Below are positions 1-34,083 of a DNA stretch of 34,083 bases, in pieces; the stretch's first letter is position 1; each line of letters begins with the position of its first letter. The notes beneath the pieces are model-generated. The model did not search any database, had not been told where the DNA came from, and saw nothing but the letters and a program-made list of their open reading frames with translations. The DNA is from Candidatus Alistipes excrementipullorum (lineage in GTDB: Bacteria; Bacteroidota; Bacteroidia; Bacteroidales; Rikenellaceae): the NCBI GenBank assembly GCA_019113665.1, contig DXGW01000006.1, forward strand, positions 1-34,083. The letters are read 5' to 3'. Made by a program: the position numbers and the translations under genes.

Positions 1-35
1 TCTTTTTGGAGGCCGAAGAACAACCAAAACAATAG
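1..35 (+). CDS. 3' end of a further array paralog (truncated by window edge)
   Basis: Frame from position 3 reads FLEAEEQPKQ-TAG(33-35), the same tail as the 42..416 and 894..1307 paralogs, followed by the same CAAGCC-ATG spacer. Confidence 0.8.
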   Translation, partial: FLEAEEQPKQ

Positions 36-41
36 CAAGCC

Positions 42-416
42 ATGAAAAAAGCCATCATCTCCATTGCCGTAATCGTGTTGATTGCAGGAGCCGTCTTTGC
101 CGCAAGGCCGAAAACTGCATATTTCTCGGGATATACCGGATATCTCGTAAAAGAGACTTCGAACTCCAGAAGTTGTATCCGGATACCCGGAGCAGAGATT
201 TCCGTAATCACCTCACAAGGGGATACCCTGCGTACGGTATCGGACGAAATGGCCACTTTCGTATTTCCCAAAATACCGGGAGGACCTGCCACATTTAAAA
301 TCGAAGCCGAAGGCTACAAAACGTCAATTCAGATAATGGAAATAGACGCAGAAAGGGAAAAGCCTTATTTCAAACTTTTTTATCTGGAGAAGGCCGAAGA
401 ACAACCAAAACAATAG
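42..416 (+). CDS. Secreted carboxypeptidase-regulatory-like domain protein, array type A (copy A1)
   Basis: Signal peptide MKKAIISIAVIVLIAGAVFA; core IPGAEISVITSQGDTLRTVSD...IEAEGYKT matches the CarboxypepD_reg-like pattern (GA.V...TD..G.F.F..P.G...I...GY). Confidence 0.8.
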   Translation: MKKAIISIAVIVLIAGAVFAARPKTAYFSGYTGYLVKETSNSRSCIRIPGAEISVITSQGDTLRTVSDEMATFVFPKIPGGPATFKIEAEGYKTSIQIMEIDAEREKPYFKLFYLEKAEEQPKQ

Positions 417-422
417 CAAGCC

Positions 423-821
423 ATGAAGAAAGCCATCATCTCCATTGCCGTAATAGTATTGATTGTCGGTGCCGCCTTTGCAAAAAGGCCAAAGACCGCC
501 GTTTTCGTCGGGGATACCGTTTATGTCTTGAATATAATAGGCACCACAACAAATTGTATACGGATACCCGGAGCAGAGATTTCCGTAATTACTTCCCAAG
601 GGGATACCCTGCGTACCGTATCGGACGAAATGGCATCGTTTGTAATTCCAAAAATGCCCGAAGGTCCCGCCACAATCAAAATCGAGGCCGAAGGCTACAA
701 AACACTTATACAGTTGCTCGACATAAGGGCCAACCGTGCCGGCCGTTATTTCAAGCGGTTCGATATGGAGAAGGCCGAAGCCGCCGCAAACGGAGAGACG
801 GACAAGGCGGAGCAAGAGTAA
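423..821 (+). CDS. Secreted carboxypeptidase-regulatory-like domain protein, type A (copy A2)
   Basis: Near-identical signal peptide and core to A1, with different loop segments and C-terminal tail. Confidence 0.8.
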   Translation: MKKAIISIAVIVLIVGAAFAKRPKTAVFVGDTVYVLNIIGTTTNCIRIPGAEISVITSQGDTLRTVSDEMASFVIPKMPEGPATIKIEAEGYKTLIQLLDIRANRAGRYFKRFDMEKAEAAANGETDKAEQE

Positions 822-832
822 ACGACCATGGC

Positions 833-863
833 CCGGTCCCGCAGCCGCAAATTGCGGGACCGG
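833..863 (+). promoter_or_regulatory. Intergenic GC-rich hairpin upstream of type B gene (copy 1)
   Basis: CCGGTCCCGCAG(833-844)/TTGCGGGACCGG(852-863), 7-nt loop, no U-tract. Confidence 0.6.
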
Positions 864-893
864 AAACCGGTCATAAGAATAAAGAATACGGAT

Positions 894-1307
894 ATGAGAA
901 AGACGTTATTTGCCCTGATTGCGTTGTCGGCGCTGCTTGCGGCCACAAGTCTCCCGGCCAAAGAGCCCCGCAGGCACAAAACACCGAAACCCGGATACGG
1001 TACTGTCACAGGAGACGTTACCCTGCCCGGAGAGTTCGAGGAGATGTCTCCGGGAATTTTCACAAGAGACAAGTTTCCCATAAGAGGAGCTTCGATAACG
1101 GCCATAACTTCGCAGGGCGATACGCTGCGGACCGTATCGGGTCAAATGGGCGAATACGCCTTCGGCCGCGTCCCGGAGGGCAAGCTCGCCATGCGCGTCG
1201 AGGCCAAGGGATACAAGACACAGATAGCAATCAAGGAGGTAATTAAGAACCAGACCACTTGTCAATATTTCGATATGGAAAAGGCCGAAGAACAACCAAA
1301 ACAATAG
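894..1307 (+). CDS. Secreted carboxypeptidase-regulatory-like domain protein, type B (copy B1)
   Basis: Start moved from 828 to ATG 894 to match paralog 1773 (MRKTLFALIALSALLAATSLPAKEP); core GTVTG...PIRGASITAITSQGDTLRT...VEAKGYKT. Confidence 0.8.
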   Translation: MRKTLFALIALSALLAATSLPAKEPRRHKTPKPGYGTVTGDVTLPGEFEEMSPGIFTRDKFPIRGASITAITSQGDTLRTVSGQMGEYAFGRVPEGKLAMRVEAKGYKTQIAIKEVIKNQTTCQYFDMEKAEEQPKQ

Positions 1308-1313
1308 CAAGCC

Positions 1314-1706
1314 ATGAAGAAAGCCATCATTTCCATTGCCATAATAGTGTTGATTGCCGGGGCCGCCTTTGCAGAAAGGCCAAAGACAGCCGTTTTCGTC
1401 GGTTGTACCGGATATCTTATATCAGAGACCCAAAAAATAGCTACTCAAATACACGGAGCAGAGATTTCCGTAATTACTTCCCAAGGGGATACCCTGCGTA
1501 CTGTATCGGACGAAACGGCGTCGTTTGTAATTCCCCAAACGCCCGAAGGTCCTGCAACAGTAAAGGTAGAGGCCGAAGGCTATAAAACACAGATACAGAT
1601 ACTCGATATAAGGGCCAACCGTGCCGGCCGTTATGTCAAAAATTTCTTTTTGGAGAAGGCCGAAGCCGCGGCAAACGGAGAGACGGACAAGCCAAAGCAG
1701 GAATAA
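1314..1706 (+). CDS. Secreted carboxypeptidase-regulatory-like domain protein, type A (copy A3)
   Basis: Paralog of A1 and A2; tail like A2. Confidence 0.8.
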   Translation: MKKAIISIAIIVLIAGAAFAERPKTAVFVGCTGYLISETQKIATQIHGAEISVITSQGDTLRTVSDETASFVIPQTPEGPATVKVEAEGYKTQIQILDIRANRAGRYVKNFFLEKAEAAANGETDKPKQE

Positions 1707-15747: not shown

Positions 15748-15847
15748 TTATGCAGGCAGCGCAGGTTTTCGTCCCCGGCGGAGATGCGCCCACGCCCGCA
15801 GAGGCCCGTCTCACGTACTGTGGGGCGCAAGAATCCGCCCCGGCACG

Positions 15848-16762
15848 CTATTCGGCCGTGATATAGCGTGCCCGCAGGTCGGGATAGATGTCGGGAATGG
15901 TGAGCATGATGCCCGTCTCCTCGACACCGCCGAAATCGGGGTTGGCGACCGTGTCGAAGACCCGCATCGTGGGCGACAGACGCATGTAGGAGCTTATCAT
16001 GGGCGGGATACGCTCGTCGTACTCGCGGATCTTGCGCACGAGTATGCGGTAGTTCTCCTCGTAGGTGCTGCCCGAAAAGAGAGCCTCGAAGTCGCAGCCG
16101 CCGCTGCCGTCCTCCAGCGGGCGGCGCGCCGTGACCAGATGCTCGCGGTCGGGGAAAAAGCGCCGCAGGAAATAGAAGAGCATGTCGCGCGCAGCACGCT
16201 TGCACGAGGCGTAGACCGTAACCTTGCCGAAGAGGTAGCGCACCTGAGGATTGCGGCGCACGACGGCCCCGAGGCCGTCCCACAGGTTGTCGAGGGCGCA
16301 GATGCTCTTGGGGTTGTTGCGCACCTGGTACGACACCTGCACGAACGAGCGCCCGAGCTCTATGGTGCGGGGCAGGAAGTTGCGGCGGAAACGCTCGCTG
16401 AAACGGAAATAGTGCTCGGTCGAGAGGTGGCGCGGACGTTCGCCGCGGCAAATTATGTAGCGGTAGCCGCCCACGATCTCACGGGCAGCGGGATCCCACA
16501 CTATGAGCTGGCGGTAACCGCCCACGGCCCTGTCGTCGGCGTCGATGTCGACGCTGCGGCCCGTACCGCCGCCCGCAGCACGGAAAGCCTCCTCGCGCAG
16601 GCGCCCCACCTCGCGCATGAGCCACGGGCATTCGGCAGCGGTGAACGTGTAGACCTCGTTGCCGCCGCGCCGCGTCGTGCACAGCAGCCGTTCGGGCGAG
16701 AGCTCGGCTTCGAGCATCTCTCGCGCCACGGGGTCGATTATCATCTCTCTGCAACCGGTCAT
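15848..16762 (-). CDS. GNAT (Acetyltransf_5) N-acyltransferase, GlsB/OlsB-like
   Basis: EVGRLREEAFRAAGGG, QLIVWD..EIVGGYR, IELGRSFV, LWDGLG, YLFGKV, IPPMISSY. Confidence 0.85.
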   Translation of the reverse strand: MTGCREMIIDPVAREMLEAELSPERLLCTTRRGGNEVYTFTAAECPWLMREVGRLREEAFRAAGGGTGRSVDIDADDRAVGGYRQLIVWDPAAREIVGGYRYIICRGERPRHLSTEHYFRFSERFRRNFLPRTIELGRSFVQVSYQVRNNPKSICALDNLWDGLGAVVRRNPQVRYLFGKVTVYASCKRAARDMLFYFLRRFFPDREHLVTARRPLEDGSGGCDFEALFSGSTYEENYRILVRKIREYDERIPPMISSYMRLSPTMRVFDTVANPDFGGVEETGIMLTIPDIYPDLRARYITAE

Positions 16763-17574
16763 CGCATCATCTTTTCATGCAGGGCGCAGACGCGTTCGCG
16801 TATCTGCAGGCACGCGGCTTCGGCGGACCCGAACGACAGGAGTTCGTCGGGAGCGACGGGACGACCGACCGCGATGCGGACGGTGGTGCCGCGCTGGCGG
16901 AACATCTCGTCGACCAGCAGCAGCGCCTCCAGCCTCGTCCCGATTCCCAGCGCCCGGCGCAGCGAGGCCGCACGGTAGAAACGGTCGGAGAGCCGGCCGT
17001 CGACATGCACCGGCACGACGGCACGCCCCGACTCGATGGCACGGCGCACAAATCTCGGCTTCCAGTCGGGGTCGCTCACGACGCCATGCCGGCGGCGCGA
17101 ACACAATCCCGCAGGGAACATAAGCACCGGCACATTGCCCCGCATCACCTCCCCGAAACGACGCGCCTGGGCAGCCGGCAGCCTTCCTCCGCCGCCCAGC
17201 GGCAGCCAAAGGCCGCGCAGCGGCCCGATCTCCGCCAGCATGCGGTTGACCACGACACGCACGTCGCCGAAGGTCTCGGCCAGCACCTCGGCCACGGCCA
17301 TGCCGTCCAGCCCCCCGAATGGGTGGTTCGACGCGAAGAGGTAGCGCCCGTCGGGACGTATCCCGCCCTCGAACCAGACGCAGCGCCCGATGCGCATGTC
17401 GTCGAGTACGGCGCTCAGGAACCGCTGCGGCGGCAACCCGCCGTAACGTGACAGCAGGTCGTTGATCTCCCGCTCGTGCAGCAGCCGCCGCAGCGCCGCA
17501 ACGGCAAAATGCGGCAGGCGGCCGGCCAGCGCCGGACGGTACTCATGCAAAAGTCGGGCTACGTCTATCTCCAT
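16759..17574 (-). CDS. PlsC-type acyltransferase, GlsA/OlsA-like
   Basis: NHPFGGLDG (HxxxxD) and FPAG motifs; overlaps the start of the GNAT gene; likely start ATG 17574. Confidence 0.85.
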   Translation of the reverse strand: MEIDVARLLHEYRPALAGRLPHFAVAALRRLLHEREINDLLSRYGGLPPQRFLSAVLDDMRIGRCVWFEGGIRPDGRYLFASNHPFGGLDGMAVAEVLAETFGDVRVVVNRMLAEIGPLRGLWLPLGGGGRLPAAQARRFGEVMRGNVPVLMFPAGLCSRRRHGVVSDPDWKPRFVRRAIESGRAVVPVHVDGRLSDRFYRAASLRRALGIGTRLEALLLVDEMFRQRGTTVRIAVGRPVAPDELLSFGSAEAACLQIRERVCALHEKMMR

Positions 17575-27337: not shown

Positions 27338-27748
27338 CTACAGGAAATCGGCGGCGAAGAGTTCCCAACCGCGCCCGACATCTGAAAGCCGGGCGCGGAT
27401 TCCGTTTTCGATATGCGACATTGCCGCCACGACGGCCACCATCGTACGCCGGTCGGAGGTATCGACCTGCACGTCGGGCGATATTCCGGCCGACGACGAG
27501 ACGAAACGCAGGTAGCTGCCCGTATCGTTCTCCGAGGGCGGGGCATAGCGGCCTATCATCTTGCGCAGGGTGTCGCAGCCGTTGCGCTTGCGGTAGGTGT
27601 AGAGCAGCACGAACATCGCGCGGTAACCCCACTCCACCGACTCGAACTCCTTGAAGGCCGCATCGCGGCTCGGGCGGATCTCGCCCTTGTAACGGGTACG
27701 CGAACGGCGTATGTTTCCCGGGTTGCGGTTGTCGAGTCCCCTACTCAT
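27338..27748 (-). CDS. 'Structural protein P5'-like lysozyme-fold protein, candidate lysin
   Basis: Start ATG 27748 overlaps the holin stop; RGLDNRNPGNIR, F.EF...WGYRAM, RYAPPSENDT..Y, MSHIENG are motifs of this phage family. Confidence 0.75.
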   Translation of the reverse strand: MSRGLDNRNPGNIRRSRTRYKGEIRPSRDAAFKEFESVEWGYRAMFVLLYTYRKRNGCDTLRKMIGRYAPPSENDTGSYLRFVSSSAGISPDVQVDTSDRRTMVAVVAAMSHIENGIRARLSDVGRGWELFAADFL

Positions 27749-28166
27749 CGCCGGCCTCCCTCTCGATACGGTGATGCACATAGCGCTTGAGCCACGACAA
27801 CAGCGGCGAATCGGAGATCTGCGAGGCGTTTTCGAGGAAAGACCAAAACTCCACGCCGCAGGTGAAGCCCGTGAATATTTTGGCGATGTTGAGCGACATG
27901 AAGTCAAGCACGCACGAGTCAATGAGCCACGCCATGGCTATCGCCGTTATGACGAATCCGGCCTTCAGGACCGTACGCCATGCTTCGCGGCTCTCGAAAT
28001 ACCATTTGCGGCCGTCACGCACGGCACGGGCGCGGCTCGCCGCCACACCCGACACGAAATCGACGGCGATGAACACCAGGGCGCATATCACCAGCGGCGT
28101 GACGGGGGCGAAGAGCGAGGCGACGGCTGCCGCCGCCCCGCTAACGAATCTGAACAATGTTTCCAT
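27741..28166 (-). CDS. Phage holin (holin_4-like)
   Basis: Three hydrophobic segments; DFVSGV; EFWSFLEN motif; charged C-terminus. Confidence 0.85.
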   Translation of the reverse strand: METLFRFVSGAAAAVASLFAPVTPLVICALVFIAVDFVSGVAASRARAVRDGRKWYFESREAWRTVLKAGFVITAIAMAWLIDSCVLDFMSLNIAKIFTGFTCGVEFWSFLENASQISDSPLLSWLKRYVHHRIEREAGDE

Positions 28167-28617
28167 CGGTAGAGCATCTTTTGAGAATGTTTTTTTCGGG
28201 GTCATACTCCGGGAATTCGGCGGCATGGTCGTCGAGGTGGCGGCTCATGCGGTGCAGGAGCGTACGCGCACGGTGGCGAAGCGAACGCGCCGCTATGCGT
28301 GTCCGTTCGACGGGCGCAGCCTCGAAGGTCGACGACGACGGCACCGTCAGTCCGCACTGTCCCGTCTGCACGCCGAGGTCGGGCATCATCAGCAGCCGCG
28401 TGTAGAGGGCCACAACCGGCGCCACATACTCCTCGCGGAAGTCGGCATGGCTGCCCTCGAGCAGCGCCGCGTGCATCTCCCCGCCGATGACCGGTATCAG
28501 CCACCGCTCCTCGGCCACGGCGATGGTGGTTTCGGGCACCGACGCCGGATCGACATAACCGCCGTCGGCAAATGCCAGCGCGACGACGGTCGCGGGATCT
28601 ATCACTGTTTTCATCAT
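28141..28617 (-). CDS. Putative head-tail adaptor/completion protein
   Basis: 158 aa, predicted helical, ATGA-coupled to the portal; I..AE...L.P.IG..M...L pattern resembles proteins downstream of portals in Bacteroidetes phages. Confidence 0.5.
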   Translation of the reverse strand: MMKTVIDPATVVALAFADGGYVDPASVPETTIAVAEERWLIPVIGGEMHAALLEGSHADFREEYVAPVVALYTRLLMMPDLGVQTGQCGLTVPSSSTFEAAPVERTRIAARSLRHRARTLLHRMSRHLDDHAAEFPEYDPEKNILKRCSTDGNIVQIR

Positions 28618-29831
28618 TCGATACTTGTTACGTTGTACTTTGTGATCTGCGAAAGGAAATACTGCTGGCGCTCGTCCTCGGGGTCGTAGTCGAGGCCGTC
28701 GGCCTTGCGGGCCTCCCACACCTTCATGTAGACGGGTTTCGAACGCGTGGGCGGGCGGTTGACTATCTCGAGCGACGAGGCGTCGATACCCGCAACCTCC
28801 TCGATGACCGAGACGATCGGTTCGAGCAGCTCGGCCTGCTCGGCGAGGATCACCGTGTTGAGCGCAATCTCGTACTCGTGGAGTATGCGTTCGGAGTTGA
28901 AACCCGACGTGTAGTCAAGGCCGCTGAGCGAGCGGAACCACGAATGGGCTATCACGATGTCGGAGGTCGCCTGGTCGTGCAGCGACTTCCAGTCGCCGTC
29001 GTTCTGCGAGGCTATGGGTATGAAACGCGAATTGTCGTCCTCGCTGCCCTCGCGCAGCACGAACATCACCTGTCCGGGATTGCCCGCGAACTTCTCCTCG
29101 GCCGTGCGTACGATGCGCTCGGCCTGGGCGTCGTCGTCGACGGCCCCGTCGAGCATCATCACGCCCGAGAGCTGGAACGAGTTGTCGAGACGCGAGATGT
29201 TCCAGCGGTCGGTCTTGTAGGCTATGGCCGAGACGTTGAAACCGGCAATGTAGGGCGGCACGCCGTAGTGTTCGAACATCGGCTCGTAATCCTTGTAGTG
29301 GATAATCGAGCGCAGGGTGCCGTCGCCGCGCTCCTCGAAAAGCGGATAGAGCGGCAGGCTCACGGCTTTCGAAGCCTCGAACGACGACCAGTCGTGGTGG
29401 AGCAATATGTGCATGTCGTCCTTGGCCACGCGGCAGCGCGAGGCGTCCTGATGGTACAGCGCGACGAACGAGTGCGCGGCATCGGTCACCACCTCGAGAA
29501 AGGCATTGCCGAAGAGCGACTTGTCGAACGCGAGCTTGTTGAGCACCTGACGCAGCGACTCGCCTCGGCCGTTGACGCACTCGACGAAACGCCCGAGCAT
29601 CACGGCCTCGGGATCGCACGTGAAGCCCTTGCCGGAGATGTAGTCGGCCTTGTCGTTGATTATGCGACGGTGGGTCGTCGAGCGCCGCGACATCAGCGCC
29701 AGCGCATAGGGGAAGAGGTTGTCATCGCCCCATCGCCAGAACTTGTCGTTTTCGGCACATGGAGTCCCGAGCATCATGCAGGAGTCGGACCTGTTGCCGA
29801 CGGCGGCTATTTTGGTTCTTTTGTTTTCCAT
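28614..29831 (-). CDS. Phage portal protein
   Basis: WGDDNLFP..L....S.TH..II..K...I.G.G, FGNAFLEV, YGVPPY, N.F.LSG, I..AH; 405 aa, typical of Bacteroidetes phage portals. Confidence 0.85.
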   Translation of the reverse strand: MENKRTKIAAVGNRSDSCMMLGTPCAENDKFWRWGDDNLFPYALALMSRRSTTHRRIINDKADYISGKGFTCDPEAVMLGRFVECVNGRGESLRQVLNKLAFDKSLFGNAFLEVVTDAAHSFVALYHQDASRCRVAKDDMHILLHHDWSSFEASKAVSLPLYPLFEERGDGTLRSIIHYKDYEPMFEHYGVPPYIAGFNVSAIAYKTDRWNISRLDNSFQLSGVMMLDGAVDDDAQAERIVRTAEEKFAGNPGQVMFVLREGSEDDNSRFIPIASQNDGDWKSLHDQATSDIVIAHSWFRSLSGLDYTSGFNSERILHEYEIALNTVILAEQAELLEPIVSVIEEVAGIDASSLEIVNRPPTRSKPVYMKVWEARKADGLDYDPEDERQQYFLSQITKYNVTSIE

Positions 29832-29947
29832 GTTGAAATCTCATTTTAGCAATCTTCGGAGCCGGCGGCGGCAGGCGGCAGCGGCGGATACGGAGAGACC
29901 CGCACCCGCCGCCGCACGAACTGCACCCCAAACGCCGTACTCACCAA

Positions 29948-30457
29948 CTATTCGGTTTCGAGCCGGGCGGCAAAGGCCGTGTCGAGGCTCTCCAGCCCGA
30001 GCGTGACGGTCGGGACATCTGCCGGGCGGCGGCCCGACGACACCTCGATGCCGGTTATCCGCAGCGGCTGCTCGCCGGCGAAGAGCGACGAGTATCCGGC
30101 CAGCAGACGGCGGCCGTCGTTGAGTTCGACCACAGCGACGAAACCGCCGCAACGGCTCTCTTCGAGAAATTCGGGTTCGAGCCATGCCTCGGCGCCGTTA
30201 CGGTCCGAAACCACGCGCAGCGTGTGCCTTACGGCAAACGACCCGTCGTCGGCCGTAAGCTTCTCCACGAACTCCGACTCGTCTTCGATCGGGCGGCACT
30301 CCATGACCTGCCCTTCGTCGGCGATCTCGCAGAGGGAGCACACCGCGCCGTTTGCGGTGAATGTCACCGTACCGAGGTTCGAGACGGCCGTAAGCCTCAC
30401 CGACCGCACCCCGCCCGCCGGTTTTCGGCGGACGGGACTCTGTGGATCGTTCTTCAT
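29948..30457 (-). CDS. Putative tail-tube (major tail) protein
   Basis: 169 aa, beta-rich, directly after the capsid gene; GGV.., G...V..TL, VAVVE..DG...L.G, SG....D....TL pattern. Confidence 0.5.
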   Translation of the reverse strand: MKNDPQSPVRRKPAGGVRSVRLTAVSNLGTVTFTANGAVCSLCEIADEGQVMECRPIEDESEFVEKLTADDGSFAVRHTLRVVSDRNGAEAWLEPEFLEESRCGGFVAVVELNDGRRLLAGYSSLFAGEQPLRITGIEVSSGRRPADVPTVTLGLESLDTAFAARLETE

Positions 30458-30466
30458 GGCCGTTTA

Positions 30467-31432
30467 TTAAGGCTCGAAAGCCATTGCGACGAGTTTCGGG
30501 TCAATGATGTCGGCACCGGCAAGGAAGACGGCACGCTGGCGGTTCTCCATCTCGTCGGGGTTGTACCACATGCGCACCTCCGTACCGGGGAAGTCGGCCG
30601 TATTTACGGCCAGCACCAGGTTGCGGCGGTCGGTCAGCATGCAGATGCGTGCCGGATACTCGGCGAACTCCCTGATACCCGACGATATGCACATGTCGAT
30701 GACCGGGATACCGTGATAGTAGAGGTCGTTGCGTCCGTCGACACGCTCGCGGTATGTGACGTCGAGGTCCTTGCTGTCGAGATACTTCTCGTACTCGTTG
30801 TAAAGGTTCGACGTGACGAAATATGCAAGCTGGCCGTCGGCCTTGAGCGCCTTGAGCTCCTCATTTGCTCCACTCCACAGGCTTTCGAGCACCAGGGCTA
30901 TGTCGTCCACGTTGCCGACAAGTGTCGCACCCGTATGGGCGGCGTCGTTTGCAGCCGCCATGGCCGACTTGAGGATACCGTCGAACGTGTTGAACGGGGT
31001 GTCCGAATCCGTATCGCCCAACCACATGGTCATACGGATACTCTCGGCTATCGCCTTCTTGAAGAGTTCGGTCTCGGCGGCCTCGAGCTCGGTGCCCGTG
31101 AGGTCCTCCATGTTGACGTCGGCGCGGTTGGTGATCAGCTCGAATACCATCGAGAAGTAGTCCGAAGCCGAAAAAGCGGTCTCGGCCTTGACCTTCTTCA
31201 TGTCGATGGTCTTCTGCTCCTTGACTGCCGATTCTCCGCCCTGCCAGCCTGTCTGGTACGGTTTCAGCACGTTCGAGGCCGGGCTCCACAGGTGAATAGT
31301 CGTAGGCATGGGCATGTTGTAGAGGACCCTGATGCCGAGGTCCTGCGCCGACTGGCCGGTGAAGGTCGGTCGGAAAAAGATGGTTTCGAGCTCACGGCCC
31401 GAGTAAACCTTGGAACTTTCGATCAATCCCAT
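30467..31432 (-). CDS. Putative major capsid protein (HK97-fold)
   Basis: 321 aa, directly downstream of the protease; WLGDT...FDGILK, Y.GIPVI, LTDRRNLVLAV resemble capsid P-/A-domain motifs. Confidence 0.72.
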   Translation of the reverse strand: MGLIESSKVYSGRELETIFFRPTFTGQSAQDLGIRVLYNMPMPTTIHLWSPASNVLKPYQTGWQGGESAVKEQKTIDMKKVKAETAFSASDYFSMVFELITNRADVNMEDLTGTELEAAETELFKKAIAESIRMTMWLGDTDSDTPFNTFDGILKSAMAAANDAAHTGATLVGNVDDIALVLESLWSGANEELKALKADGQLAYFVTSNLYNEYEKYLDSKDLDVTYRERVDGRNDLYYHGIPVIDMCISSGIREFAEYPARICMLTDRRNLVLAVNTADFPGTEVRMWYNPDEMENRQRAVFLAGADIIDPKLVAMAFEP

Positions 31433-31492
31433 AGTAGAATTTCAGATTAAAGAGTTAATGATAAAGTGTGAATTTGTCGGGTGCCGCCCGCG

Positions 31493-32380
31493 TCAGTAGC
31501 GCATGAAACGGCGGGCGTCGGCCGCATAGGCCTCCTCGTTGGCCGAGCGTCGCGGCTCGCCTATCGACGGATCCTCCTTGGGGGCCGTGGCGGTCGGGGC
31601 TGCGCGCCGCTGCCCCTCCTGCAGGGCTATGAGCGACGCCACCGCCGAACGGTCTCTTTGGGGTTCGCCGAAATGGAGGATATTGCGGTCCGCCTCGTTT
31701 TCGGGCACATCGCGGCGCGAGAGACCTACGGCCGCGAGCAGTTCGCCCCACCGGCGGGCAATGTCCGAGGCGAGGGAACGGCGCTGCGGCGTCTGGGCAT
31801 CGTCGACGATCTCGTCGACAAGCCCGGCGGCCAGAGCCTCCTCGGGCGAGAGCCAGCGGCCGTTGCCGCCGTTCTCGGCCATGAGCGAGGCGAACTCCTC
31901 AGCCCCGCGCCCCGAACGGGCGGCATAGACGCCGGCGATCCGTTCGTCGGTCTTGCGCAGCAGGTCGGCCCTGGCTTCGAGTTCCGAGGCGTTGCCCTCG
32001 GTCGAGCAGAGCGAGTTGTGGATAAGGTAGAGGGCGTTTGCCGAGATGCGGCGGCACCCTTCGGAGGCCGCCTGGGCGATGATCGTGGCCGCCGAGGCCG
32101 TATAGCCGTAACAGCATGTCACGATGTGGGCGTCGAGCGACGCGAGCGCGTCGTAGATGAGCAGTGCGTCGTTCACGTCGCCTCCGGTCGAACGGATATT
32201 GACCACCACCTCCGCAGCCTCGATGTCCGAGATGCGGGCCACGGTGTCCTTGAACTTCTCGTAGGTCGCCACCCGCGACGACGGGTCGTCGAACTGCCAC
32301 TCCTCGGGCACGCCTATGGTGCCGTCGATGTCGATGCGGCACACCTCTGCCGAGTTGCTGATGTTGATTTCGGATTTCAT
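31493..32380 (-). CDS. ClpP-type prohead maturation protease with short C-terminal extension
   Basis: Start ATG 32380; IDGTIG, IRSTGGDV, GYTASAAT (catalytic Ser), YLIHN (His), WLSPEEALAAGLVD. Confidence 0.88.
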   Translation of the reverse strand: MKSEINISNSAEVCRIDIDGTIGVPEEWQFDDPSSRVATYEKFKDTVARISDIEAAEVVVNIRSTGGDVNDALLIYDALASLDAHIVTCCYGYTASAATIIAQAASEGCRRISANALYLIHNSLCSTEGNASELEARADLLRKTDERIAGVYAARSGRGAEEFASLMAENGGNGRWLSPEEALAAGLVDEIVDDAQTPQRRSLASDIARRWGELLAAVGLSRRDVPENEADRNILHFGEPQRDRSAVASLIALQEGQRRAAPTATAPKEDPSIGEPRRSANEEAYAADARRFMRY

Positions 32381-32519
32381 AAAATGGATTTTTGGTTTTT
32401 GGATTGGTTTCCGGCGGTGCCGCGGCTGCGGGCCTGCCGGCATGATGCGCACGCGGCGGGAGTGCCGCACGGGCCGAGGGAGCGGGATTGCATTCGATAC
32501 ATTCGTCACGTTGCGTGCG

Positions 32520-32771
32520 TCATTTCGAGTAGATGAAGCCCCTGATCTTCTCGTACGAACAGCACAGCCTTTCGGCAATCTCCTCCATCGCCCGGCAGCG
32601 CGGCATGCCTTCGCGCGTAAGGCGTTCCATCTCCTCGCGTGCGACCTCGGCTTCGACGCCGCGCCGGTCGAGCAGCCCGCGGTTCCACAGGAACTCGACG
32701 GCCTCGGCCGACGACATGCCGTCGACAGCCCTGACCACATGCGTTACAAGTTCGTCACGGTATGCAGCCAT
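32520..32771 (-). CDS. Small hypothetical protein with C-terminal HTH-like motif
   Basis: 83 aa from ATG 32771 (TGATG coupling); AMEEIAERLCCSYEKIRGFIY looks like a helix-turn-helix. Confidence 0.6.
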   Translation of the reverse strand: MAAYRDELVTHVVRAVDGMSSAEAVEFLWNRGLLDRRGVEAEVAREEMERLTREGMPRCRAMEEIAERLCCSYEKIRGFIYSK

Positions 32772-34083
32772 CACTTGTCGCCGATTTGCAGGAACGTACA
32801 CATGGCCGTGGCCTCCGACGGGTCGTAATCCTCGACGGCTTCGAGAATGAAGAGCGCCAGACGGTCGCCGTACCTCAATCTGAATACCGAGCGTATCGAC
32901 GGCACCCCATCGATGAAAGCGAAGAGCCCTTCATAGTCGGCCGGCGAGAGCCGCATGCGCAGCTTCACCCTGTTGCCGCGGTTTCTGTCGGCGAGTTCAC
33001 GGTCGTAGAACGAGTGGAGGCCCGCCGCGCCGTCGCGGTCCTCGAAACAGAGGGTGAAGGCGGCGCTGTCGGCATCACCGGCGAAATGGAACGCCGCCAG
33101 CGGATATTCGTCTCGGTTGAACGGGTATCCCCATCGTTCGCCGTCATGGAGCGGGTGCAGCCCGGCGTACCGCACGATGCGCGGCGAGAAGTTTGCGGTC
33201 TCGTCGGCGGTGTCGGCACCGGCGTCGCCCACACGCATTATCAGTGCCGATTCGGCATTGGCATACTCTCCGGCGATGTTGACCGTAGGGGCGAAGAGCG
33301 GGTTCACCGACTTGTCGTCGCCCTGGATCGTCGCCCGCGAGGTCATGTCGAAGCTCCACGATGCGAACGGAGCGTCGAGATCCGCCTCGAACTCCGAAAC
33401 CGCCTCGTCGCCTTCGAGATAGCACCACGTACGGCTCTCGTGGTCGGAGCATGCCGTCTCCTCGATGCGCATGTCGGCCGACATGTCGATCCTGTCGCTC
33501 CAGTCGTAGACCTCCGAGCGTATGAAGAAGTCGTCGTACGGTTCGATCAGGACACGTTTCCTGCGCTCGTCGGTGTAGATCCTCAGGTTGAACATCTGCA
33601 CGAGCGCCTCGATCAGCACGGCCTGGCGCACGCTGTGCTGGGCGATGTCCGAAAACTCGATCTGCGAACCGTAACCCACGGCCGACGAGAAGAGCGGCCT
33701 TACGGCCGTCTCCCTGCAGAGGGTGAACGACATGCCCGGGTCGGCGCGGTCGAAATAGATCTCATTGAAGTATTTGGGCGATGCGGGCGTAAGCTCCTCG
33801 GGCGGCGTGCGCACGACGATCTCGATTTCGGTCTGCCCCTTCTCGCCGACAAAACCGTTGTAGAGGGCCCAGTCGCCGCTGTAGTATTCGTAGAGCGTCG
33901 ATCCGGCCTCGGCCCTGAACAGCAGCGGGTTCGTGACGGTGCCGGCCCGGGGCGTCGACACCTGCGACACGCGTCCGGCCACGTCGGCCATCAGCTCCTG
34001 CTGGCCGTCGGCCGTGACCATGAGGCGGTAGACATACTTGTCGGAGTAGTCGAATATGACCAGACTGTACGAGAAGTCGGGCG
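32771..34083 (-). CDS. Putative phage tail (tip/hub) protein, 5'-truncated by window
   Basis: Frame stays open from 34021 to the window edge; L.QMFNL.I..D.....V.IEPY.DF......DWS.RID resembles Bacteroidetes siphovirus tail proteins. Confidence 0.6.
   Translation of the reverse strand, partial: PDFSYSLVIFDYSDKYVYRLMVTADGQQELMADVAGRVSQVSTPRAGTVTNPLLFRAEAGSTLYEYYSGDWALYNGFVGEKGQTEIEIVVRTPPEELTPASPKYFNEIYFDRADPGMSFTLCRETAVRPLFSSAVGYGSQIEFSDIAQHSVRQAVLIEALVQMFNLRIYTDERRKRVLIEPYDDFFIRSEVYDWSDRIDMSADMRIEETACSDHESRTWCYLEGDEAVSEFEADLDAPFASWSFDMTSRATIQGDDKSVNPLFAPTVNIAGEYANAESALIMRVGDAGADTADETANFSPRIVRYAGLHPLHDGERWGYPFNRDEYPLAAFHFAGDADSAAFTLCFEDRDGAAGLHSFYDRELADRNRGNRVKLRMRLSPADYEGLFAFIDGVPSIRSVFRLRYGDRLALFILEAVEDYDPSEATAMCTFLQIGDK

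What the first reader, a model, noticed from the sequence alone, without database searches (positions are those of the whole stretch)
27338..34083. Candidate domesticated gene-transfer-agent (GTA)-like particle operon in a gut Bacteroidota
Seen: a minimal set of virion genes (protease, capsid, tube-like, portal, adaptor, tail) plus holin and lysin. All frames are intact with start/stop overlaps at 32771, 28617, 28166 and 27748, and there are no morons, IS elements or AT-rich accessory ORFs. GC and codon style look the same as the dcw genes, and the operon ends 150 nt from a core gene. No integrase, repressor, replication or terminase gene lies in the visible part. Established: this profile (ameliorated, streamlined, structural-only, with packaging and regulator genes often elsewhere) characterises RcGTA, BaGTA and VSH-1. 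Having a capsid and portal excludes a tailocin or contractile injection system. Inference: a host-maintained particle packaging chromosomal DNA; I know of no characterised GTA in Rikenellaceae. Caveat: the 5' part is off-window, so an ordinary prophage cannot be excluded.
Basis: partly seen in the sequence, partly recalled or inferred. Interest (0 to 1): 0.88.

Follow-up and report, generated by a model that had tools for sequence, protein, structure and literature searches.

The report
Tamed phage-particle genes of Alistipes
This stretch is the head, tail-tip and lysis half of an old set of phage genes that nearly all Alistipes-family gut bacteria inherit and keep under selection, with the DNA-packing motor at a second site, and it likely builds short-tailed particles filled with the host's own DNA, which would be a gene-transfer-agent-like system in a phylum where my searches found none described.

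Summary
Observation confirmed, and the prophage caveat is removed. The operon continues on contig C35 (terminator-like, distal-tail-like, hub genes) up to a host-type promoter. An intact large terminase with a CI-like repressor sits on C93. Capsid and terminase each occur in 35 of 36 Alistipes genomes; the portal occurs in 188 of 200 Rikenellaceae, but in only 2 of 297 other Bacteroidales. Trees follow the host tree, and dN/dS is below 1 for every gene. Related prophages and gut phages show the ancestor: same gene order plus integrase, small terminase, fibres and a 893–1478-aa tape measure. These genes are missing from the domesticated loci. Tube and terminator are also gone in 13 of 27 Alistipes, and two genera keep only head genes. 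So domestication is well supported. Packaging of host DNA is inferred. Delivery is the weak step: no tape measure, two genomes lost the operon, and a faecal virion study listed no Alistipes GTA event among 63. The scan found this system before on three other genomes. New here: the reduction ladder, live phage relatives, a hub fold with a C1q/TNF-like insert, and separate regulation of the two loci.

The parts
32771..34083 (-). C-terminal 436 aa of a ~780-aa baseplate-hub (tail-tip) protein; its N-terminal 332 aa lie on contig C35 (1-998), about 20 codons fall in the assembly gap
   Evidence: AlphaFold model of the G004 orthologue (pLDDT 87) matches phage hubs (Z 11.9, rmsd 5.0, 304 aligned, 9rku; Mu gp44 Z 10.2) with an inserted C1q/TNF-like jelly roll at ~217-485 (Z 9.3)
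32520..32771 (-). 83-aa helical protein, also present before the protease in related phages; function not identified; detected in 33 of 48 operons
31493..32380 (-). ClpP-type prohead protease (295 aa) with conserved Ser and His motifs
30467..31432 (-). putative major capsid protein (321 aa)
   Evidence: position in intact phages; weak Pfam/PHROG hits; 35 of 36 congeners
29948..30457 (-). tail-tube-like protein (169 aa); present in 26 of 48 operons, 14 of 27 Alistipes
28614..29831 (-). portal protein (405 aa)
   Evidence: PF04860, PHROG 11226/12; 188 of 200 family genomes
28141..28617 (-). head-tail adaptor-like protein (DUF6712; role inferred from position after the portal)
   Evidence: 48 of 48 operons
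27741..28166 (-). holin (Phage_holin_4_1)
27338..27748 (-). small lysozyme-like endolysin (136 aa)
   Evidence: PHROG 873 E 8e-41

Best explanation
This is one locus of a phage-derived gene set that Rikenellaceae inherit vertically and keep under purifying selection, and it likely builds DNA-filled heads with a very short tail stub, packing host chromosomal DNA in the manner of a gene transfer agent. Shown: the structural operon (C35 + window), a separate repressor / 94-aa gene / large-terminase module (C93) and a relocated post-lysin gene (C56); no integrase, replication, small terminase, tape measure or fibre genes at these loci, although related phages carry them in the same gene order. Inferred mechanism: (1) protease, capsid and portal make proheads from a conserved sigma-70-type promoter whose leader holds repeated DnaA-like boxes; (2) the large terminase is held off by a CI-like S24 repressor bound to a palindrome over its own promoter and would be released by RecA-stimulated cleavage after DNA damage; (3) with no small terminase in its usual place and no replicating element genome, the motor would fill heads with host DNA; (4) the adaptor closes the head and, where kept, terminator, tube, distal-tail and hub proteins form a stub whose C1q/TNF-like insert would bind a receptor; (5) holin and lysin release the particles from a sub-population. 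Confidence in parts: domesticated and selected about 0.93; packs host DNA about 0.7; delivers it to recipients about 0.45.
For: Distribution: capsid 35 of 36 and terminase 35 of 36 congeners; portal 188 of 200 family genomes in 18 of 23 genera, one match in 182; 2 of 297 genomes outside the family at E<=1e-30; all 38 portal-positive genomes tested have the terminase, and the 8 portal-negative genomes of other genera lack it too. Repressor and 94-aa gene flank the terminase in 29 of 30 loci. Trees (25 genomes): portal+capsid share 14 of 22 splits and terminase 15 of 22 with gyrB+dnaK; shuffled mean 0.27, maximum 3; patristic r 0.76 and 0.80. dN/dS 0.06-0.40 for all 13 genes between G000 and its nearest relative G239, and below 1 wherever estimable in 19 genome pairs. 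Walker A/B and nuclease aspartate motifs of the terminase and the protease Ser/His motifs are kept. An intact prophage (G022:C31) and IMG/VR gut phages keep the same gene order with small terminase, tape measure (893-1478 aa) and fibres; the hub-to-next-gene gap is 4-733 bp in 43 domesticated operons against 2720 bp in the prophage. One ancestral locus is still visible: terminase upstream of the head genes in four head-only genomes and about 5.5 kb upstream of the operon's first gene, with host genes between, in G100. Promoter found in 41 of 43 operons. RcGTA's small terminase lacks a specific DNA-binding domain (PMC7947584, passages) and FpGTA is split over two operons with no visible tail (PMC12946183, section 9).
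Against: No particle, packaged DNA or transfer was observed. No tape measure in any of 27 Alistipes operons, tube and terminator both absent in 13 of 27, and no hub or distal-tail gene at the locus in four genomes of two genera: an injection route is not obvious. G150 has an internal deletion of about 8.3 kb and G130 lacks the operon at its site, yet both keep repressor and terminase with dN/dS 0.17-0.20. In three human donors Rikenellaceae were among the most abundant families, but none of 63 packaging events is a GTA event for this family; two rows that I read as Alistipes are listed as prophage induction (PMC12946183 passages and supplement 3). The repressor's palindrome is absent from this genome's operon promoter (best score -2.8 against 17.1 at the terminase promoter), so joint induction is not shown. 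A single origin is not rejected but not shown (AU p 0.405), and two phage terminases nest among the domesticated ones. Three well-supported splits conflict between host and structural trees.
Confidence: 0.6

Rival explanations
1. Heads that borrow tails: the host makes DNA-filled, tail-deficient heads and completes them with tail parts (tape measure, tube, fibres) from related temperate phages that still infect Alistipes, so transfer or interference happens only during phage infection, as recalled for capsid-forming satellites.
For: The invariant core is adaptor, portal, capsid, protease (48, 48, 48, 47 of 48), while tail genes decay stepwise; cognate phages with full tails and 65-68% identical portals circulate.
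Against: Hub and distal-tail genes are kept in 27 of 27 Alistipes operons under selection, and holin plus lysin are kept in most, which fits autonomous release.
Confidence: 0.12
2. Defence or programmed lysis rather than gene transfer: the repressor gives immunity or senses phage/DNA damage, the terminase cuts DNA, and the structural proteins act as decoys or poison the assembly of related phages.
For: Repressor and terminase persist under selection in genomes that lost the capsid genes, and G150 kept promoter and lysin; related phages are common; the two loci have different control sites.
Against: G150 is very close to an operon-bearing genome (terminase dS 0.21), so its loss may simply be recent; a decoy would not need portal, protease, adaptor, terminase ATPase and lysis genes all to be conserved across 18 genera.
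Confidence: 0.15
3. A PBSX-like particle that packages host DNA but serves to kill or adhere to neighbours and does not transfer genes.
For: PBSX packages 13-kb host fragments without transfer (PMC7667829, passages); the hub carries a predicted receptor-binding insert; distal-tail and hub genes evolve fastest (dN/dS up to 0.4-0.9).
Against: No sheath, tape measure or fibre genes at the loci, so no evident killing apparatus; head-only lineages exist.
Confidence: 0.1
4. An ordinary or decaying prophage.
For: All genes have homologues in true phages, in the same order.
Against: 188 of 200 family genomes, host-congruent trees, dN/dS below 1, host genes on both sides, loci split across the chromosome.
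Confidence: 0.02

Closest known systems
FpGTA of Faecalibacterium (PMC12946183; abstract, passages, section 8 part 1, section 9 and supplement 3 read)
   Same: Gut anaerobe; near-ubiquitous in its genus; split over separate loci; head genes, large terminase, holin and lysin; particles without visible tail.
   Different: Gram-positive host; FpGTA keeps a small-terminase candidate beside the large terminase and was shown to make ~40-nm capsids with ~9-kb DNA. Here the ancestor is a long-tailed Bacteroidales phage, a CI-like repressor is kept, and no particle has been seen. Sequence homology between the two was not tested.
RcGTA-type gene transfer agents of Alphaproteobacteria (PMC7947584, passages; the rest recalled)
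   Same: Vertically inherited phage-derived head-tail cluster, genes at several loci, no replication or integration genes.
   Different: RcGTA keeps a tape measure and a small terminase lacking the specific DNA-binding domain, and (recalled) is controlled by host regulators and GafA. Here the tape measure is lost, no small terminase lies beside the large one in Alistipes, and the terminase sits behind a phage-type CI switch.
Temperate Rikenellaceae phages: prophage G022:C31 and IMG/VR contigs L067-L096
   Same: Same order hub - small gene - protease - capsid - tube - portal - adaptor; portal 49-68% identical.
   Different: They keep a tape measure of 893-1478 aa and fibres; the prophage also has integrase, recombination genes, small terminase, tail chaperone and a diversity-generating retroelement.
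PBSX of Bacillus subtilis (PMC7667829 and PMC12946183, passages)
   Same: Defective, replication-less, host-kept phage element that packages chromosomal DNA; repressor-controlled, damage-inducible (recalled).
   Different: PBSX has a full contractile tail (recalled) and kills rather than transfers; here there is no sheath and the tail is reduced.
Non-canonical CI-like LexA of Bacteroidetes (PMC8565304, passages)
   Same: Chromosomal phage-type HTH + S24 repressor that binds a palindrome at its own promoter.
   Different: Those bind GGA-N5-TCC or CTAA-N5-TTAG, run an SOS regulon and are reported absent from Bacteroidales; this one has a TTCAA-N3-TTGAA palindrome with few strong sites in this genome (18 sites above 9 bits, the best at its own promoter).

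Membership tests
Gene transfer agent | Phage-derived genes fixed in the host chromosome and inherited vertically | tested here: met
Gene transfer agent | Maintained by purifying selection | tested here: met
   dN/dS 0.06-0.40 for 13 genes in the closest pair; below 1 in all estimable cells of 19 pairs
Gene transfer agent | No own integration or replication module | tested here: met
   Host genes flank the operon and the terminase module; DnaD/DnaC-like genes found in 1 of 81 terminase stretches (G022:C9) and not in G000
Gene transfer agent | Head morphogenesis and packaging genes intact | tested here: met
   Protease, portal and large terminase identified with motifs kept; capsid label weaker
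Gene transfer agent | Packaging not specific for its own genes (small terminase absent or lacking DNA-binding domain) | tested here: inconclusive
   No room for a small terminase between the 94-aa gene and terL in G000; the prophage TerS found nothing in 5 genomes, without a positive control; an 88-aa TerS-like gene in G087 gave only E 0.79
Gene transfer agent | [quoted passage not shown] | not testable with these tools
   Needs purified particles; a published faecal virion table lists no such event for this family
Gene transfer agent | Packaged DNA is delivered to and recombines in recipients | not testable with these tools
   Needs a transfer assay; tape measure missing at the locus
Gene transfer agent | Production under host regulatory control | tested here: inconclusive
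   Conserved promoter with DnaA-like boxes, but the boxes are absent upstream of dnaA in 3 of 3 genomes and the terminase is behind a phage-type repressor
RcGTA family (alphaproteobacterial GTA lineage) | Descent from the RcGTA head-tail cluster | not tested
   No RcGTA sequence was compared; the nearest relatives found are Bacteroidales phages
Temperate prophage | Integrase and replication module beside the virion genes; patchy strain distribution | tested here: not met
Tailocin / contractile injection system | Headless tail with tube, tape measure and (contractile types) sheath | tested here: not met
   Portal, protease, capsid and terminase present; no tape measure or sheath gene at the locus
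Capsid-forming phage satellite (features recalled) | Mobile island with integrase and replicase that packages its own genome | tested here: not met
   Fixed, split, host-congruent loci without integrase
Bacteroidetes non-canonical LexA | Binds GGA-N5-TCC or CTAA-N5-TTAG and controls SOS genes | tested here: inconclusive
   A different palindrome is conserved at its promoter; the genes behind the other 17 genomic sites were not annotated

The most novel reading that the evidence does not exclude
A gene transfer agent of Bacteroidota that works without a tape measure: a DNA-filled head docks through an adaptor and a hub with a C1q/TNF-like receptor domain (or through tails taken from cognate phages), and is switched by a two-input gate, with head assembly under an origin-linked, DnaA-like-box promoter and packaging under a DNA-damage-cleaved phage repressor. 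The family would then preserve a complete ladder from live phage to minimal particle.
Probability: 0.2. Interest if true: 0.93.

Novelty: new variant of a known kind. Interest (0 to 1): 0.78.

Why it matters
Few GTA lineages are known, and my five literature searches returned none for Alistipes or Rikenellaceae; the 2026 FpGTA paper calls its element the first from the human gut. A particle system kept by 94% of the sampled Rikenellaceae genomes would be a family-wide route of gene flow or DNA repair in a major gut group with culturable strains, so it can be tested directly. Because live relatives of the ancestral phage still exist and intermediate states survive (chaperone and tape-measure remnant kept, tube lost, tail lost, locus split), it also lets one test how a phage is domesticated and which tail parts DNA delivery really needs. 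A practical point: such operons are filed as viral contigs in IMG/VR.

Tried and rejected
Terminase_3 profile found nothing in G000; Terminase_6N found the terminase. Prophage tape measure and small terminase as queries found nothing in G000, G004, G011, G024, G031, without a positive control. The 94-aa protein folds confidently (pLDDT 97) but has no match above Z 4.8 in PDB and none at E<=0.001 in BFVD; the Atlas gave one 0.81 lead. Complex prediction of the 94-aa protein with the terminase ATPase part gave no answer. Profile searches of PDB sequences with tube, distal-tail, terminator, small-gene and capsid alignments, and with the capsid and terminase alone, gave no phage structure; the Mor-like idea for the 83-aa gene got no Pfam support. 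The tape-measure remnant hit only the prophage tape measure's C-terminus among 189 phage proteins but at E 0.27, so that label rests on position. One shared operator for both loci was rejected for this genome; it holds for G142 and G157. DnaA autoregulation as support for the leader boxes failed (0 of 3). Contigs of three metatranscriptome runs cover most of the operon and part of the terminase locus, but contigs cannot show transcription or level; one DNA contig runs 2883 bases past the window's end. Codon-usage control in G022 did not discriminate. The prophage portal found no close viral contig. Fine mapping of the replication origin near the operon was not done. Trees left out genomes lacking a marker (25 of 31 kept) and 17 near-duplicate rows.
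Full report
Observation. The window is the whole contig G000:C23 of an 82%-complete genome; record titles of its close relatives name Alistipes and Rikenellaceae. Protease, portal, holin and lysin have clear family hits. The capsid, tube and adaptor labels rest on position in intact phages and on weak hits; searches for a solved capsid relative failed.

The missing 5' end. Orthologues from relatives place it on contig C35: a 134-aa terminator-like gene (1989-2393), a 322-aa distal-tail-like gene (995-1963) and the hub's first 332 aa, then a promoter and a divergent host gene. Both labels are positional. In ten congeners read over 40 kb, host genes such as corA, comEC, rplY/pth and prfA flank the operon in varying contexts. 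A large terminase (PHROG 38, E 9e-87) lies on C93 behind a 94-aa gene and a divergent CI-like repressor, among host genes. A phage gene that follows the lysin in four operons of other genera has moved to C56 (4935-5519; PHROG 14010; 23 of 36 congeners; spanin-like role is my inference).

Distribution and inheritance. Capsid: 35 of 36 congeners and 0 of 24 genomes of other families. Terminase: 35 of 36, with repressor and 94-aa gene beside it in 29 of 30 loci. Portal: 188 of 200 family genomes at least 90% complete, 18 of 23 genera, one match in 182; 2 of 297 outside the family at E<=1e-30. The terminase was found in 38 of 38 portal-positive genomes, 0 of 8 portal-negative genomes of other genera, and 4 of 4 portal-negative Alistipes. 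Of those four, G192 and G203 keep the start of the operon, G150 has an internal deletion of about 8.3 kb that spares promoter and lysin, and G130 lacks the operon at its site. On 25 genomes, portal+capsid and terminase trees share 14 and 15 of 22 splits with gyrB+dnaK (shuffles: mean 0.27, maximum 3), with 3 and 1 well-supported conflicts. Nei-Gojobori dN/dS is 0.06-0.40 for all 13 genes between G000 and G239 and below 1 wherever estimable in 19 pairs, highest 0.90; gyrB and dnaK give 0.01-0.07.

The ancestor. G022:C31 is an intact-looking prophage with integrase, recombination genes, small and large terminase, tail chaperone, the same structural order, an 893-aa tape measure and fibre-like genes. 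IMG/VR holds gut phage contigs with that order and portals 65-68% identical; tape measures checked in three contigs are 1013-1478 aa. In 43 domesticated operons the gap after the hub is 4-733 bp, against 2720 bp in the prophage. Among 48 operons: adaptor, capsid and portal 48, protease 47, hub and distal-tail 43, terminator 29, tube 26, tape-measure remnant 5, chaperone 2; 13 of 27 Alistipes have neither tube nor terminator. Four genomes of two genera have terminase directly upstream of head genes and no hub found; G100 shows the split in progress, with host genes between terminase and operon. One origin is not rejected (AU p 0.405) and not shown; two phage terminases nest inside the domesticated group.

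Structure and control. The hub model matches phage baseplate hubs and has an inserted C1q/TNF-like domain; receptor binding is inferred. Terminase motor and nuclease motifs and protease motifs are kept. The repressor keeps a candidate Ala-Gly site and Ser/Lys motifs in 32, 35 and 34 of 40 sequences (roles recalled from CI/LexA). A TTCAA-N3-TTGAA palindrome overlaps the terminase-side promoter in 63 of 64 intergenic regions (the matrix was built from these regions). It is strong at the operon promoter in G142 and G157 but absent in G000; 10 of 43 operons score above 9 bits. The operon promoter (TTGACA ... TAnnTTTG) is found in 41 of 43 operons; its leader holds 82 DnaA-like boxes against 0.6 expected, 70 on the sense strand, but such boxes are absent upstream of dnaA in 3 of 3 genomes.

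Mechanism and rivals. Conserved protease, capsid, portal, terminase, adaptor and lysis genes with no genome of their own to replicate point to heads filled with host DNA. How that DNA would be delivered without a tape measure, and often without a tube, is unexplained. This leaves tail borrowing from cognate phages, defence or programmed lysis, and PBSX-like use as live rivals. Published data do not show activity: in PMC12946183 (abstract, passages, section 8 part 1, section 9, supplement 3 in full; supplement 1 cut, figures not seen) none of 63 events is a Rikenellaceae GTA; two rows abbreviated 'A. megaguti' and 'A. avistercoris', which I read as Alistipes from recall, are prophage inductions. 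That study covers three uninduced donors, so it does not exclude inducible production.

Novelty. Searches for a GTA in Alistipes, Rikenellaceae or Bacteroidota returned none (listings only, except papers named here). Passages were read in PMC7947584, PMC8565304, PMC7667829 and bioRxiv 10.64898/2026.06.25.734096, whose supplements are closed and could list these loci among its 902 prophage calls. The scan reported the same system on three other genomes; my distribution results came before that look-up and the tree and selection tests after it. It works like a GTA on every genomic criterion, but membership needs packaging and transfer, which were not testable. Verdict: real, domesticated, probably GTA-like; new variant of a known kind; interest 0.78.

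Noticed in passing
G011 complete genome, 26 held stretches (L033, L034, L135-L137, L140, L360-L379): GC skew turns from negative to mostly positive between about 1.73 and 1.9 Mb, where the operon lies (1.81 Mb), while dnaA is at position 34; in five complete genomes the operon is 0.42-0.48 of the chromosome from dnaA. The operon may lie near the replication origin.
   Followed up: partly
G000:C50 near 11572: A second cluster of three DnaA-like boxes in an AT-rich stretch beside an Mrp/ApbC-like gene (label recalled); a possible origin or co-regulated promoter.
   Followed up: no
L148:4235-5444 (G022:C9): This terminase module keeps DnaD-like and DnaC-like replication genes between the 94-aa gene and terL; 1 of 81 terminase stretches examined.
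   Followed up: partly
L131-L132 (G022:C31): The related prophage carries a diversity-generating retroelement (Avd + reverse transcriptase).
   Followed up: no
L183:4011-12018 (G087): Head-only single-locus form: repressor, two small genes, terminase, protease, capsid, portal and an adaptor with a long low-complexity insertion (382 aa), no tail genes.
   Followed up: partly
L138 (G032:C231) and L429: Phage terminases with the WHDAPD nuclease motif typical of the domesticated clade, next to a small terminase, nest inside that clade: possible recapture by phages or a second domestication.
   Followed up: partly
L051-L066, L068, L089, L094: Many IMG/VR 'viral' contigs are this chromosomal operon rather than phages; two group with genome copies at zero branch length.
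   Followed up: partly
window 15825-17253: Contigs of two RNA-library runs of one study skip 1044 and 252 bases here, pointing to a strain with deletions in the two minus-strand genes.
   Followed up: no
window 1-1706: Lower GC (0.49-0.52) with several tandem ORFs of 124-159 aa on the plus strand; not annotated.
   Followed up: no
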